Positions 37,037 to 49,783 are shown, counted from the first letter of the stretch. The stretch is DNA of 64,000 nt from Escherichia phage phiEc_1 (LC768462.1); one strand, 5' to 3'. Translations and numbers: made by a program. The notes: generated by a model not told the origin, from the letters alone.

Positions 37037-38827
37037 ATGTCAAAGATCATTTTGGGAGACACAGGTTGTAAGGAATGTATCTCTCATGGTCGTGATAAAA
37101 CCCACAACCACATGATTCTCTTCCGTAACGAAGAGACTGGTGAGGAGTGGGGAAGTTGTAACCGTTGTGGGAATTACGAAGTGTTCGAAAAGGGCACTAC
37201 ACCTACTCCAAACGAGAAGAAAGAGTTATCCCCTGAAGAGTTGAGAGAAGTCTTAGATGATTGCTTAGAGCTTCCTCAGGGTGAACTTACTCGCCGTTTA
37301 ATCCCTAAAGCTGTATCAGAGCGGTTTGAGTGTCGTATTGGCCTCAGTCAAACTGATGGTCAGACACCAGACAGTTACTTCTTTCCTCGTGAACGTGATG
37401 GAAACATTGTCGGGTATGAGGTGAAGCTGCTAGATAGTAAGAAGTTCTATTACGTCGGCAGTGTGAAAGAGGCAGACCTATTTGGTATGGCACAAGCTCA
37501 ACGTGGAGATGTGTACAACAAGAAGCTCTTCATTTTTGAAGACCCGCTATCCTGTATGTCAGGTTTCCACGTCCTTACAGCTTTTACAAATGCAACAAAC
37601 ATTAAACCAGCATGTGTTTCTTTACCGTTCGGTGCAGGTTCAATCTCTTCTGTGTTGTCTCGTAATCGAGACTTCGTAAATGGTTTTGAGGAGGTTGTGC
37701 TCTGCATGGACAACGATGATGCAGGTGAGATAGCTTTAACAAAAGGTCGTTCTTTATTCCCTCATGTTAAGTTTGCTCGTATTCCTAAAGGAACTTTCCC
37801 ATACAACGGTGTGGAGAAAGAGATTAAGGATGCGAATGACATGCTTCTGTCTGGTCGTGGTCAAGAGTTATTCAACATTCTCAAGTATTCAGCAAAGCGG
37901 GAATCTCCTGCTGGTGCTGTAACAATCTTTGATTGCCTTGATGATGCTCTGAAGAAAGCGGAGTGGGGTATTCCCTATCCGTGGAAAACTCTTAATGAGA
38001 TGACCTTCGGTATTCGATGGGGAGAGGTGGTAGCAATTGGCGGTGGTGTAGGTAGTGGTAAAACACTGATTGCTCACGAGCTGGTTGCTCATCTGTGCTT
38101 AGAGCACGGTTTTAATGGGGGTGGCTTCTTCTTGGAAGAGAAGGTAGGCATGTCTGTTAAGAACATCGCTGGTAAGTCAGCATCGATTCCTTTCCACCGA
38201 CCTGATGTTGAATATGACGAGGAAGATTTGCGTAATGAAGCACTTCGTTATGCAGACAAATTCTTCTTGTATGACAACTTCGGACAGAATGAATGGGAAG
38301 ACATTAAACAGTGTATCCGTTTCTGGGTAGTTGAAAACCAGTGTAAGTTCATCATCCTTGATAACATTACCGCTCTGGTATCTCATTTAACACCTTCAGA
38401 GATTAACACTGAAATCAGTAAGATTGCTTCCGAGCTTGCTGGTATGTGTAAAGAATTAGACTTTACCGCTTTCGTGCTATCTCACCTTAATGCTCCGGCA
38501 GGTGGTGCTCCTCATGAAGAAGGTGGACAGGTACGTGAAGTACAGTTCACTGGCTCTCGTTCTCTTATGCGTTGGTGTCAGTGTATCATTGGCTTTGAGC
38601 GTGACAAGCAAGCTGACGGCTTAGCTAAGAACCTCTCAGTCATTCGATTACTGAAAGAACGTAACTACGGTCAGACAGGTGTCTGTTATACTAAGTATAT
38701 CAGTGAAACCGGTAGACTTGTAGAAAGGGAAGACTTTGAAGTTGATGAAGATAATCCATTCGTTTTAACTAACGGAGAGGATGCAGCTTCTCTCGTCAAC
38801 CAAGCAGATGGAGCTTCACCGTGGTAA
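37037..38827 (+). CDS. primase-helicase (T7 gp4-like)
   Basis: N-terminal zinc ribbon CKEC...CNRC, helicase Walker [10 protein letters not shown]. Confidence 0.85.
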
Positions 38828-39378
38828 AGAAAAAGAAGAAAGTGTTTGCATTCGATATCGAGAGTAATGCACTATACGATGACATAACTAAAGTATGGTG
38901 TATTTATATCTTTGATGTTGAAACTGGTGAAAGGTGGGGCTATCGGCCTCACCAAATTGAAGACGGGATTCGTAAACTTACAGAAGCAGATGTACTAGTG
39001 GGTCATAATATTATTGACTTCGACTTACCTGCTCTGAAAAAGATGTATCCTTCTTTGATTAAATATAATTTTAACGTCTTTGACACTTTATGTCTTAGTC
39101 GATATCTTAAACCTGATCGTATTGGTGACAGTCCTGAGTATCCGAAAGGCGACCCTAGACGTGGCCCAAGAGGTCACGGCTTGAAGCAATGGGGTGAGTT
39201 CTTAGGGGAACTTAAAGGTGACTACGGTGAGCAAGAGGAAGCATGGGATGCTTTCACTGAAGATATGTTTACTTATTGTGAACAGGACGTTAACTTAACT
39301 GTTAAGGTTTATCTTTTCTTGTGTGAACTCACGGGATTTGACCCTTACGACCCACCTTCATTATATTGGAAAATGTAA
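38821..39378 (+). CDS. DNA polymerase 3'-5' exonuclease domain, separate polypeptide
   Basis: [27 protein letters not shown] match T7 DNA pol exo motifs; GTG start overlaps primase stop. Confidence 0.8.
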
Positions 39379-39379
39379 A

Positions 39380-47508: not shown

Positions 47509-47922
47509 ATGCCATTACCAGCTAGACACCAAAACCGTTTCCTAGTTCTCAAGTGGGATGATATTGAAATGAATCTCACTGAACATGAACTGGACTTGTT
47601 TCATGAATTATTATCAGAAATTCGCTCTGGTATTCCTGAACGTCAGTATGTGGTTATAAGCGATAAGCACCCTCAAGAGTTTGAAGAAGCTTGGGGTATG
47701 AAACTGGCTTACATCCAAAGAGCTATTCGAGAAAGAGAAGAAGTTGCTAATCAAAGAGTTGTGGCTCATCTAGTCAGAGAACAGCCTCGTGAAGTTAGGT
47801 CTTCTTATTCTCCATCTACTTGGGCACAAACAAATGCAGCAATGAGAACATACGCTGTTGATTCCACATCCTTGGATGTAGTAGAAGATAACCAAGCATT
47901 TACAGATTTACTTTACCAATAA
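47509..47922 (+). CDS. hypothetical protein
   Basis: 137-aa ORF. Confidence 0.55.
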   Translation: MPLPARHQNRFLVLKWDDIEMNLTEHELDLFHELLSEIRSGIPERQYVVISDKHPQEFEEAWGMKLAYIQRAIREREEVANQRVVAHLVREQPREVRSSYSPSTWAQTNAAMRTYAVDSTSLDVVEDNQAFTDLLYQ

Positions 47923-47938
47923 TTTAAAGGAGTATAAA

Positions 47939-49783
47939 GTGAGCAACCCGGACGCTCTTCCATTTTTGACAGAGATGACTGTCGCTGATATAATCTCTAA
48001 GCAAGCAAAGCACGGAGTGAGTTTCAACCGAAGAAATGCTCGGTGGTATGTTCACCTCCTTAAAGAGATTATTGTTAATATTGACAGAGAGTTGATTCCT
48101 CTCTTACCTAAGATGAGATTAGATGGCTCTACTTACATGAAGCCGTTTAAGAAGTCTGGAGCTTTACAGAAGTGGCCTCAAGCCTATTGTGATAGGGTTG
48201 GGCTGAAGAGAGAAGACATTGGTGGAGCTTTCACCTGTGTCGAATACGTAGACTTTGACCCATCGAAAGATGCACGAGTTAAAGAAGCTCTTATGGATGA
48301 GGGCTTTCTTCCTCCAGAGTTTAACGTATCTAAGAAGCCTTGGAATACTTTCGAAATTAAGAAAGATATGAGAAAGTATGGAACATACCAAGCATGGTAT
48401 ACTGCTTGGATGCGAGGAAATGCTAAGCAGAAGCAGACAGCCGAGATGGTTGACGCTGATATTAAGAAGTTCTTAGAAAAGCATTTTAGGTTTAAAACTA
48501 AGAACTATATGAAGGCTTACGTATTTGGTTTGGGATTAAACCCGAATCGTCGTAATCCTGTAACGTTTGATGAGATTAAGAAAGCGCTAGCCACATCAAA
48601 CAAGTGGCCTACAGCTCCTACAAACCTCGAGGAGACTCTTGAAGAAGGGTTAGGGGGTGAGCTAGGGAGTGTCGGAAGTTTGCTTAAGAGACGCGTTGTA
48701 GCGGCTCACAGGCTAGGTCTTATCAGTGGACTTATAGCAAAGGAACGCGAAGATGGTAAACTTTCGGCAGAAGCTAACAGCTGCGCTACGCCGACTTTTC
48801 GATTCAAACATCGTATCGTTGTTAATATTCCCTCCCGTGGTTTGTTTGGTCATGAGTGTCGCAGTTTGTTTGAGTCTGACTATAACTCAGACAGTGATCA
48901 TTCTCGTCCTTTCGTTATTACTAACGTTGTTCCTGATGGTTGTTATATACGAAAAGGTACTAACGTAATTTACGAGAAAGGTAAGCCGGGGAAGAAAGAC
49001 AAACCTGTAGGTGCTTACAAATATTACATACCCGCTGGTAAAGAAGTATTCTTAGGGTATGATGGTTCTGGACTTGAACTTCGTATGCTCGCTCACTACC
49101 TCATTAAAGAGTGTAGGGATATGCTTGCTGAGGCTATCGAAGAGAACAACCCAGCTAAGAAAGCTCTGGCAGAACGTGGTTTAGCTTCTGCTATTATGTA
49201 TCGTGATATTCTCCTTGAAGGTGATATCCACTCCCACAACCAGAAACTTGCTGGTCTTCCTACTCGTGACAACGCTAAAACGTTTATCTATGCATTCAAC
49301 TACGGTGCTGGCGATGCTAAGCTTGGTTCAATTGTAGGTGGTGGGGCTGACGAAGGTTCAGTGATGCGAGCACGTTTCTTAGCAGAGAACCCATGTATTG
49401 CAATCCTCATTGATCGTATGACAGAGAAAGCTGCTCAAGGATACTTGATTGGAGTTGATGGTCGTAAGATTACAATGAGACGGGATGCCACTGGTAAGGT
49501 TATGGTTCATAAAGCCCTTAACACACTCCTGCAATGTGCTGGTGCTGTTGTTATGAAATATGCTATGATGTTCCTTAACAAGTGGATTGAGAAAGATAAG
49601 GTTCGTTGTGCTAAGGTAATTGATATGCACGATGAAGGTCAATTCTCAGTAAACCGTAATGATGTACAGAAACTCAAAGAGCACACCGAGCTTTGTGTTA
49701 AGAAGGCTGGTGAGTATTTGAACATGGAATGCCCTCTGGCTTCTGATTGTCAGATTGGACTTAACTGGATGCACACACACTAA
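47939..49783 (+). CDS. family-A DNA polymerase, polymerase-domain polypeptide
   Basis: motif A DGSGLELRMLAH, motif B RDNAKTFIYAFNYGAG, motif C HDEGQF; N-terminus aligns with T7 DNA pol just after exo domain. Confidence 0.85.
   Translation: MSNPDALPFLTEMTVADIISKQAKHGVSFNRRNARWYVHLLKEIIVNIDRELIPLLPKMRLDGSTYMKPFKKSGALQKWPQAYCDRVGLKREDIGGAFTCVEYVDFDPSKDARVKEALMDEGFLPPEFNVSKKPWNTFEIKKDMRKYGTYQAWYTAWMRGNAKQKQTAEMVDADIKKFLEKHFRFKTKNYMKAYVFGLGLNPNRRNPVTFDEIKKALATSNKWPTAPTNLEETLEEGLGGELGSVGSLLKRRVVAAHRLGLISGLIAKEREDGKLSAEANSCATPTFRFKHRIVVNIPSRGLFGHECRSLFESDYNSDSDHSRPFVITNVVPDGCYIRKGTNVIYEKGKPGKKDKPVGAYKYYIPAGKEVFLGYDGSGLELRMLAHYLIKECRDMLAEAIEENNPAKKALAERGLASAIMYRDILLEGDIHSHNQKLAGLPTRDNAKTFIYAFNYGAGDAKLGSIVGGGADEGSVMRARFLAENPCIAILIDRMTEKAAQGYLIGVDGRKITMRRDATGKVMVHKALNTLLQCAGAVVMKYAMMFLNKWIEKDKVRCAKVIDMHDEGQFSVNRNDVQKLKEHTELCVKKAGEYLNMECPLASDCQIGLNWMHTH

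What the first reader, a model, noticed from the sequence alone, without database searches (positions are those of the whole stretch)
38821..49783. T7-type DNA polymerase encoded as two genes separated by 8.5 kb
The 185-aa ORF at 38821-39378 aligns with the T7 DNA polymerase 3'-5' exonuclease domain (DIE, HNxxDFDxPxL, YxxQDV). The 614-aa ORF at 47939-49783 begins where the exonuclease homology ends and carries polymerase motifs A, B and C. About 20 genes lie between, including a thioredoxin-like gene (43436-43711), notable because T7 polymerase uses host thioredoxin as a processivity factor.
Basis: partly seen in the sequence, partly recalled or inferred. Interest (0 to 1): 0.65.

Follow-up and report, generated by a model that had tools for sequence, protein, structure and literature searches.

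The report
Known split phage DNA polymerase
This E. coli phage of the phiEco32 group really does encode its T7-like DNA polymerase as a separate proofreading gene and polymerase gene 8.5 kb apart, but that layout has been annotated since 2008 and is described in the literature as shared by the whole group.

Summary
ORF 38821-39378 (185 aa) matches the 3'-5' exonuclease domain of T7 gp5, residues 2-190. ORF 47939-49783 (614 aa) matches gp5 residues 213-704. The break falls at the exonuclease/polymerase linker, with about 24 genes (8,560 nt) between the two ORFs. All catalytic residues are invariant in homologues, both genes are under strong purifying selection, and both AlphaFold models match T7 gp5 best. 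It is not an assembly artefact, since at least 61 independent phage genomes share the layout.

The window is a Kuravirus (phiEco32-like phage), and the split is already known. The 2008 phiEco32 GenBank record annotates both halves. Papers from 2012 and 2023 say the separation is common to the group and to LUZ24-like phages. PHROGs has families named "DNA polymerase exonuclease subunit". The idea that the phage thioredoxin acts as a processivity factor was published in 2021.

That thioredoxin idea stays untested and is weakened here. The thumb insert at the position of T7's thioredoxin-binding domain is 48-52 aa in all 71 exonuclease-less homologues, against 77 aa in T7. LUZ24-like phages have the same insert but gave no thioredoxin match.

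Physical association of the two polypeptides is inferred, not shown. Verdict: real, ordinary, already known.

The parts
37037..38827 (+). T7 gp4-like bifunctional primase/helicase, the gene immediately upstream of the exonuclease ORF. It has an acidic C-terminal tail ending in W.
   Evidence: Pfam DnaB_C E=1e-10 plus a weak Toprim match. Annotated as DNA primase/helicase in relatives. Its stop codon overlaps the exonuclease start by 7 nt.
38821..39378 (+). Stand-alone 3'-5' proofreading exonuclease subunit (185 aa), equivalent to T7 gp5 residues about 1-203. Orthologue of phiEco32 gp74.
   Evidence: AF2 pLDDT 94.6, with T7 gp5 chains as the top 27 PDB fold matches. PHROG 'DNA polymerase exonuclease subunit' E=5e-77. 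dN/dS 0.02-0.14.
39380..47922 (+). Intervening block of about 24 same-strand genes. It includes a nucleotidyltransferase (39380-40693), dCTP deaminase (40703-41236), Dps/ferritin-like DNA-binding protein (about 42247-42810), thioredoxin, ThyX (43727-44383), a stand-alone LigA Ia domain (44926-45249), PhoH (45625-46362) and many small ORFs.
   Evidence: annotation of relatives. The equivalent block is 1.9 kb in a LUZ24-like phage and more than 10 kb in a 119-kb metagenomic phage.
41877..41885 (+). AAATGTATA, a one-mismatch match to the phage sigma (gp36) middle-promoter motif. It lies in the 72-nt intergenic gap that separates the early class (containing the exonuclease gene) from the middle class (containing the polymerase gene).
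   Evidence: Motif and early/middle gene classes are taken from PMC4281155.
43436..43711 (+). Short thioredoxin (91 aa, CAPC active site) that lacks the first ~22 residues of E. coli TrxA. It sits directly upstream of thyX.
   Evidence: Pfam Thioredoxin E=2e-13. Aligns to E. coli Trx1 residues 24-107 at E=2e-8. Homologues are confined mainly to C3-morphotype phages.
46374..46382 (+). TAATGTATA, an exact match to the middle-promoter motif in the intergenic region after phoH, upstream of the polymerase gene.
   Evidence: PMC4281155 places a middle promoter at the corresponding boundary, next to the PhoH-like gene CDS57.
47939..49783 (+). Exonuclease-less T7-type family A DNA polymerase (614 aa), equivalent to T7 gp5 residues about 206-704. 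Orthologue of phiEco32 gp53. It carries a 50-aa thumb insert (residues 56-105) at the position of T7's thioredoxin-binding domain, plus three lineage-specific insertions (residues 136-215, 322-366 and 391-416).
   Evidence: AF2 pLDDT 92.2 and pTM 0.81, with T7 gp5 as the top fold match at E=2e-25. dN/dS 0.02-0.05.
56741..57583 (+). Separately encoded 5'-3' exonuclease (FEN/RNase H-like), the third Pol I-type activity, analogous to T7 gp6. These are ORF limits; the true start is probably a little downstream.
   Evidence: Pfam 5_3_exonuc_N E=6e-7, below the gathering score. Annotated as RNaseH in a relative. PMC9965538 describes a separate 5'-3' exonuclease subunit.

Best explanation
The window comes from a Kuravirus (phiEco32-like E. 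coli podophage). Its replicative polymerase is a T7 gp5-type family A enzyme whose gene has undergone fission exactly at the exonuclease/polymerase linker. The 185-aa product is the complete proofreading domain and the 614-aa product is the complete thumb/palm/fingers polymerase.

The most likely mechanism is that the two polypeptides reassemble non-covalently into a gp5-like heterodimer at the fork, with the exonuclease acting as a trans proofreading subunit. The adjacent gp4-like primase/helicase would work with them, and a separately encoded 5'-3' exonuclease would process primers.

The ancestral gene order was helicase followed by polymerase, as in T7. The junction between the two halves then became a site where cargo genes accumulated. 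These are nucleotide-metabolism and small accessory genes: 1.9 kb in LUZ24-like phages, 8.5 kb here, and more than 10 kb in larger relatives.

Shown here: domain content, the break point, intact catalytic residues, purifying selection, predicted folds, and conservation of the arrangement. Inferred: heterodimer formation, proofreading in trans, and any role of thioredoxin.
For: - **Identity of the phage:** 98% nucleotide identity to phage MN03, and 99 Kuravirus-type records match the region.
- **Clean break:** exonuclease residues 9-172 align to gp5 2-190, and polymerase residues 8-614 align to gp5 213-704.
- **Catalytic residues:** D12, E14, D68, D156 and D375, E380, R443, K447, Y451, H564, D565, E566 are invariant in homologues; Y152 is nearly invariant.
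- **Predicted folds:** AF2 models have pLDDT 94.6 and 92.2, and T7 gp5 is the top PDB fold match for both.
- **Selection:** dN/dS is 0.02-0.14 for the exonuclease gene and 0.02-0.05 for the polymerase gene.
- **Translation signals:** each ORF has its own Shine-Dalgarno sequence.
- **Homologue lengths:** every close exonuclease homologue is a stand-alone protein of 163-195 aa. Full-length polymerase homologues down to about 35% identity lack the exonuclease domain.
- **Co-occurrence:** matching longest-contig lengths suggest six exonuclease/polymerase homologue pairs share a contig, for example P0130/P0005 and P0143/P0007.
- **Synteny elsewhere:** the order helicase, exonuclease, variable block, polymerase is also seen in Bruynoghevirus JD05.
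- **Prior descriptions:** the phiEco32 GenBank annotation, PMC3517423 and PMC9965538.
Against: No experiment or complex prediction shows that the two proteins bind each other.

By the published gene classes and the motif positions, the two genes appear to lie in different temporal classes, the exonuclease gene early and the polymerase gene middle. An obligate 1:1 complex would not obviously require this.

Fused exonuclease-polymerase relatives fall inside the family in a crude neighbour-joining tree. The history may therefore involve more than one fission or fusion event.
Confidence: 0.85

Rival explanations
1. Three-piece holoenzyme. The phage thioredoxin (43436-43711) binds the polymerase thumb insert and acts as the processivity factor, replacing host TrxA in the T7 scheme. 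The enzyme would then be exonuclease + polymerase + phage thioredoxin.
For: T7 gp5 is the closest solved relative. The polymerase has a 50-aa insert at the position of T7's thioredoxin-binding domain, and the C-terminal part of that insert is recognisably homologous (GGAFTCVEYVDFDPS against GAPYTPVEHVVFNPS). Every C3-morphotype phage examined encodes both proteins, and the hypothesis is published (PMC7881722; PMC4281155). Thioredoxin and polymerase both fall in the middle gene class.
Against: The insert is 48-52 aa in all 71 exonuclease-less homologues against 77 aa in T7. AF2 models it as a confidently folded element on its own (pLDDT 89-93).

LUZ24-like phages have the same insert, but tblastn with this thioredoxin found no Pseudomonas phage. 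A 49%-identical relative has no thioredoxin within 10 kb of its polymerase gene.

The gene sits directly upstream of thyX, among nucleotide-metabolism genes. That placement fits a redox or dNTP-supply role at least as well.
Confidence: 0.25
2. The 185-aa exonuclease works independently of the polymerase, or mainly with the primase/helicase to which it is translationally coupled. It could, for example, act as an early nuclease in host DNA breakdown, recombination or end processing, leaving a polymerase that does not proofread.
For: The gene overlaps the helicase gene's stop codon. By gene class it is early while the polymerase is middle. Its adjacency to the helicase gene is conserved in LUZ24-like phages.
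Against: Its closest relatives in both sequence and fold are the proofreading domains of T7-type polymerases, not free nucleases. It ends exactly where the polymerase ORF's homology begins. The exonuclease and polymerase genes co-occur and diverge in parallel across relatives. The helicase-polymerase adjacency is simply the T7 gene order.
Confidence: 0.1
3. Artefact or decay. The split reflects a misassembly, or a degraded polymerase gene whose N-terminal fragment is a pseudogene.
For: None was found beyond the unusual layout itself.
Against: 61 independently sequenced phage genomes cover at least 80% of the region with the same order. dN/dS is well below 1 for both ORFs. All catalytic residues are invariant across distant homologues. 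Each ORF has its own ribosome-binding site.
Confidence: 0.01

Closest known systems
phiEco32 gp74 ('type I DNA polymerase, contains 3'-5' exonuclease domain') and gp53 ('DNA polymerase-like protein, lacks 5'-3' and 3'-5' exonuclease domains'), and their orthologues throughout Kuravirus/Gordonclarkvirinae
   Same: These are the same genes. They have the same lengths (185 and 614 aa), order, neighbours and strand. Nucleotide identity across the region is about 92-98% to related Kuravirus genomes, and phiEco32 is 98.3% identical over a 351-nt stretch at the polymerase gene's 5' end. The separation is stated in the literature to be common to all group members (PMC9965538).
   Different: Nothing of substance. 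The number of small intervening ORFs varies between isolates.
LUZ24-like Pseudomonas phages (Bruynoghevirus), 'DNA polymerase part I / part II'
   Same: They have a separate exonuclease gene directly after the primase/helicase gene and an exonuclease-less polymerase downstream on the same strand. Polymerase identity is 39-42% over the full length, and the thumb insert has the same length. PMC3517423 describes the split and links it to phiEco32.
   Different: Only about 1.9 kb (9 small ORFs) separates the halves. The polymerase is about 545 aa because it lacks insertion 391-416 and has a shorter insertion at 136-215. No thioredoxin homologue was detected.
T7 gp5 / E. coli thioredoxin
   Same: It is the best solved-structure match for both halves. 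The catalytic motifs are the same, including the Tyr at the position of T7 Y526. The neighbouring gene is a gp4-like primase/helicase, and the 5'-3' exonuclease is encoded separately, as with T7 gp6.
   Different: T7 gp5 is a single 704-aa polypeptide. Its thioredoxin-binding domain is 77 aa against 50 aa here. T7 uses host thioredoxin and encodes none of its own. The Kuravirus polymerase has three extra insertions.
E. coli Pol III core (alpha polymerase plus epsilon/DnaQ proofreading subunit); functional analogy only, from established knowledge
   Same: Polymerase and DEDD-type proofreading exonuclease are separate polypeptides that must assemble.
   Different: The polymerase family is unrelated (family C). 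The Kuravirus exonuclease is specifically the family A/T7-type proofreading domain.

Membership tests
T7-type (gp5-like) family A DNA polymerase | DEDD 3'-5' exonuclease motifs ExoI (DxE), ExoII (NxxxD/FD) and ExoIII (YxxxD) are intact | tested here: met
   D12/E14, H62/N63/D68 and Y152/D156 are present. All are invariant in 52 homologues except Y152, which is nearly invariant. They align to T7 D5/E7, D65 and Y170/D174.
T7-type (gp5-like) family A DNA polymerase | Polymerase motifs A, B and C with catalytic Asp/Glu, and the motif B Tyr of T7 (Y526) | tested here: met
   D375/E380, R443/K447/Y451 and H564/D565/E566 are invariant in 71 homologues. They align to T7 D475, R518/K522/Y526 and H653/D654/E655.
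T7-type (gp5-like) family A DNA polymerase | Closer to T7 gp5 than to bacterial Pol I in both sequence and fold | tested here: met
   phmmer gives 1e-32 for T7 against 1.5e-6 for Klenow. Foldseek gives 2e-25 for T7 against about 1e-15 for Bst/Pol I.
T7-type (gp5-like) family A DNA polymerase | Exonuclease and polymerase domains in one polypeptide | tested here: not met
   There are two ORFs, each with its own start, stop and ribosome-binding site, 8,560 nt apart. This departure is what defines the phiEco32/LUZ24 subgroup.
T7-type (gp5-like) family A DNA polymerase | Thumb insertion (thioredoxin-binding domain, 77 aa in T7) that binds thioredoxin | tested here: inconclusive
   A 50-aa insert lies at the same position, and its C-terminal part is homologous to T7's. 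Binding cannot be tested with these tools. The insert is also present in relatives where no thioredoxin gene was detected.
Split two-gene family A polymerase of phiEco32-like and LUZ24-like phages (PHROG 'DNA polymerase exonuclease subunit' plus an exonuclease-less polymerase) | Stand-alone exonuclease ORF of about 165-195 aa directly downstream of the primase/helicase gene | tested here: met
Split two-gene family A polymerase of phiEco32-like and LUZ24-like phages (PHROG 'DNA polymerase exonuclease subunit' plus an exonuclease-less polymerase) | Exonuclease-less polymerase ORF on the same strand, starting at the exonuclease/polymerase linker | tested here: met
   Polymerase residue 8 aligns to T7 residue 213. 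All full-length listed homologues down to about 35% identity have only 11-26 residues before the QAKHGV anchor, against 226 in T7.
Split two-gene family A polymerase of phiEco32-like and LUZ24-like phages (PHROG 'DNA polymerase exonuclease subunit' plus an exonuclease-less polymerase) | The two polypeptides form a functional proofreading polymerase | not testable with these tools
   No multimer prediction was possible. No biochemical study turned up in the library searches.

The most novel reading that the evidence does not exclude
The Kuravirus replicase is a three-polypeptide version of the T7 gp5/thioredoxin holoenzyme. The exonuclease subunit would be made early with the helicase, the polymerase later in the middle class, and a phage-encoded truncated thioredoxin would dock on the shortened thumb insert as a dedicated processivity clamp. 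That would make the phage independent of host TrxA. Staggered expression would give the exonuclease a separate early role before the polymerase appears. The thioredoxin part of this is already a published hypothesis; only the temporal and assembly aspects would be new.
Probability: 0.15. Interest if true: 0.4.

Novelty: already known. Interest (0 to 1): 0.12.

Why it matters
As a discovery it adds little, because the split has been in GenBank since 2008 and in several papers since.

It remains a reasonable experimental system. This is a natural fission of a T7-type polymerase at the exonuclease/polymerase linker, and it has been kept under strong purifying selection across several phage genera. 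It could therefore show how proofreading works in trans in family A enzymes. It could also show whether a phage-encoded thioredoxin can replace host thioredoxin as a processivity factor.

The comparative result here is that the thumb insert has a constant length whether or not a thioredoxin gene is present. That tempers the published thioredoxin hypothesis.

Tried and rejected
- **Three-way MAFFT alignment:** aligning T7 gp5 with both ORFs forced the polymerase N-terminus onto the exonuclease domain and was discarded. Profile-profile alignments replaced it.
- **Original phiEco32 paper:** Savalia et al. 2008 is not held in the library. I relied on its GenBank record and on later papers that cite it.
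- **Failed scripts:** two scripts failed because the T7 locus sequence was not at the file name they expected in the script environment.
- **Intein, intron or trans-splicing:** rejected. Each ORF has its own ribosome-binding site, start and stop, and 24 ordinary genes lie between them.
- **Pseudogene or assembly artefact:** rejected.
- **A single ancestral fission:** cannot be asserted. Fused relatives nest inside the family in a neighbour-joining tree that has no support values.
- **Middle-promoter motif:** the motif search is not statistically enriched over the whole window (19 hits against 19.9 expected). Only the intergenic hits that coincide with published promoter positions were used.
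Full report
**1. What is in the sequence**

The two ORFs are present as described. The first is 38821-39378 (+, GTG start, 185 aa) and the second is 47939-49783 (+, GTG start, 614 aa).

The first ORF starts inside the stop region of a 596-aa gp4-like primase/helicase gene (37037-38827), in the sequence GTGGTAA. It has a GGAG 7 nt upstream. It ends one base before a nucleotidyltransferase gene. The second ORF has an AAGGAG 6 nt upstream.

Pfam assigns DNA_pol_A_exo1 (E=1.3e-8) to the first ORF and DNA_pol_A (E=2.5e-23) to the second. The gap is 8,560 nt and contains about 24 genes, all on the same strand.

**2. Relationship to T7 gp5**

T7 gp5 is the best solved-structure sequence match for both proteins, at 1.5e-12 and 1.2e-32. 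Klenow scores only 1.5e-6.

Profile-profile alignment places exonuclease residues 9-172 on gp5 2-190 (99.7%, E=4e-27). It places polymerase residues 8-614 on gp5 213-704 (100%, E=6e-57). The exonuclease C-terminal tail [13 protein letters not shown] continues onto gp5 at about residues 191-203 (YFPPEIDF...). The break therefore lies at gp5 residues about 203-206, the exonuclease/polymerase linker, with nothing lost or duplicated.

AlphaFold2 models built from 52 and 71 homologues are confident, with pLDDT 94.6 and 92.2. T7 gp5 chains are the top PDB fold matches for both.

The catalytic residues are invariant across homologues, apart from Y152, which is nearly invariant. In the exonuclease they are D12, E14, D68, Y152 and D156. 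In the polymerase they are D375, E380, R443, K447, Y451 and H564-D565-E566.

Pairwise dN/dS among four Kuravirus genomes is 0.02-0.14 for the exonuclease gene and 0.02-0.05 for the polymerase gene. Both genes are therefore functional.

**3. Source of the window and how common the layout is**

The region is 98% identical to Escherichia phage MN03. It matches 99 phage records, nearly all of them E. coli or Shigella Kuravirus-type podophages, and 61 of those cover at least 80% of the 12-kb query in the same order. This excludes an assembly artefact.

All close homologues of the exonuclease are stand-alone proteins of 163-195 aa. Full-length polymerase homologues down to about 35% identity are exonuclease-less proteins of 488-618 aa.

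Matching longest-contig lengths suggest that six exonuclease/polymerase pairs share a contig, and the two proteins diverge from the window's copies in parallel.

The Bruynoghevirus JD05, a LUZ24-like phage, shows the same order: gamma-glutamyl cyclotransferase, primase/helicase, exonuclease, nine small ORFs (1.9 kb), polymerase, endonuclease, DNA-binding protein, 5'-3' exonuclease.

In a 119-kb metagenomic phage whose polymerase is 49% identical, the 10 kb upstream of the polymerase gene is filled with dCTP deaminase, NrdD/NrdG and small ORFs, and no exonuclease gene has yet appeared.

The junction between the two halves is thus a variable cargo region of about 2 to more than 10 kb.

A crude neighbour-joining tree places a group of fused proteins of about 600 aa inside the family (P0108, P0110, P0114-P0116 and P0119). 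I therefore cannot say whether there was one fission event or several.

**4. It is already known**

The 2008 phiEco32 GenBank record annotates phi32_74 as 'type I DNA polymerase; contains 3'-5' exonuclease domain'. It annotates phi32_53 as 'DNA polymerase-like protein; lacks 5'-3' and 3'-5' exonuclease domains'.

PMC3517423 (2012) states that in all LUZ24-group phages the polymerase and proofreading activities are separate genes, and that a similar organisation was reported for phiEco32.

PMC9965538 (2023) states that phage YF01 has a DNA polymerase with separately encoded 5'-3' and 3'-5' exonuclease subunits. [quoted passage not shown]

Recent records label the small gene 'DNA polymerase exonuclease subunit'. 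PHROGs has families with that name, and the match here is E=5e-77.

**5. Thioredoxin**

The 91-aa ORF at 43436-43711 is a genuine thioredoxin with a CAPC active site. It aligns to E. coli Trx1 residues 24-107, so it lacks the N-terminal ~22 residues.

The idea that it couples with the T7-like polymerase to raise processivity was published for phage Privateer and the C3-morphotype phages (PMC7881722).

I could test it only indirectly.

- The polymerase does carry an insert at the position of T7's thioredoxin-binding domain (residues 56-105). Its C-terminal part is homologous to T7's.
- The insert is 48-52 aa in every one of 71 exonuclease-less homologues, against 77 aa in T7.
- AF2 models the insert as an ordered hairpin-helix-strand element.
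- tblastn with the thioredoxin finds it mainly in C3-morphotype phages and in no Pseudomonas phage, even though LUZ24-like polymerases have the same insert.
- The gene sits directly upstream of thyX, among dCTP deaminase and other nucleotide-metabolism genes.

I rate the processivity role at about 0.25. A redox or dNTP-supply role is at least as likely.

**6. Expression**

The SU10 paper gives gene classes that it says are the same as in phiEco32: CDS 69-125 are early and CDS 25-68 are middle (PMC4281155). By these classes the exonuclease gene (phiEco32 gene 74) is early, together with the helicase. The polymerase (gene 53) and thioredoxin (gene 65) are middle.

Consistent with this, the gp36-sigma middle-promoter motif occurs at two positions that fit. 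One is at 41877-41885, in the intergenic gap at the gene 69/68 boundary. The other is at 46374-46382, after phoH. The exonuclease gene lies upstream of both and the polymerase gene downstream of both.

This is an inference from motif positions and published classes. It is not measured for this phage.

**7. Verdict**

The finding is real and correctly interpreted at the gene level. It is not an artefact, and it is not new. The mechanistic core is well supported by sequence, fold and evolutionary evidence: a non-covalent exonuclease/polymerase heterodimer that behaves like T7 gp5. It has not been demonstrated biochemically.

The only open question of some interest is whether the phage thioredoxin is a polymerase accessory subunit. 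That idea is already published, and the comparative data here do not strengthen it.

Noticed in passing
window 47966-47994 (+), inside the 5' end of the polymerase ORF: A perfect sigma-70 consensus promoter, TTGACA-17 nt-TATAAT with a TG extension. It is the only such site in the 64-kb window (0.03 expected) and starts 27 nt after the polymerase start codon. The 29-mer is identical in phiEco32, 172-1, Bas90 and ev_rybdy3. In genomes 77-81% identical (4E8, Bas89, EK010) the block GAGATGAC(T/A)GTCGCTGATATAAT is conserved, including synonymous sites, while the -35 element degrades. Its function is unknown. It could be an internal promoter, origin-associated transcription, or simply coding constraint.
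   Followed up: partly
window 38740-38827 (C-terminus of the primase/helicase): The helicase ends in an acidic tail...[32 protein letters not shown], with a terminal aromatic residue. From my own knowledge, this resembles the acidic, Phe-terminated tail of T7 gp4 that docks on gp5. The polymerase thumb insert (residues 56-105) has a net charge of about +3. This suggests a T7-like helicase-polymerase contact.
   Followed up: no
relatives: L009 (phage KarlSchell_Bas89) and proteins P0014-P0017, P0080 and P0099 (BUCT695): In some Kuravirus-like phages the polymerase gene is itself interrupted. The Bas89 polymerase is annotated as a join of two pieces spanning 2,625 nt instead of 1,845 nt. Several homologues are only 437-460 aa, covering 72-74% of the query, and end near motif B. 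This looks like an intron or homing-endonuclease insertion, as reported for LUZ24. The window's copy is uninterrupted.
   Followed up: partly
window 44926-45249 (+): The 107-aa gene annotated as 'DNA ligase' or 'NAD-dependent DNA ligase' in relatives is only a stand-alone LigA Ia (NAD+-binding) domain (Pfam Nlig-Ia, E=3e-35). It has no adenylation or OB domains, so 'ligase' overstates it.
   Followed up: partly
window 39380-40693 (+): A 437-aa nucleotidyltransferase lies immediately after the exonuclease gene, with a 1-nt spacer. It has a weak poly(A) polymerase/CCA-adding head-domain match (Pfam E=0.004; PHROG nucleotidyltransferase E=4e-241). Its function in the replication cluster is unknown.
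   Followed up: no
window about 42247-42810 (+), with a terminator-like hairpin at 42817-42845: A Dps/ferritin-like 'DNA-binding protein' lies in the block between the exonuclease and polymerase genes. A strong terminator-like stem-loop (11 pairs, 7 of them GC) follows it directly. A ferritin-like gene also lies upstream of the polymerase gene in the 119-kb relative.
   Followed up: no
window 56741-57583 (+): A separately encoded 5'-3' exonuclease (FEN-like; Pfam 5_3_exonuc_N E=6e-7, below the gathering score). All three Pol I-type activities are therefore on separate polypeptides in this phage.
   Followed up: partly
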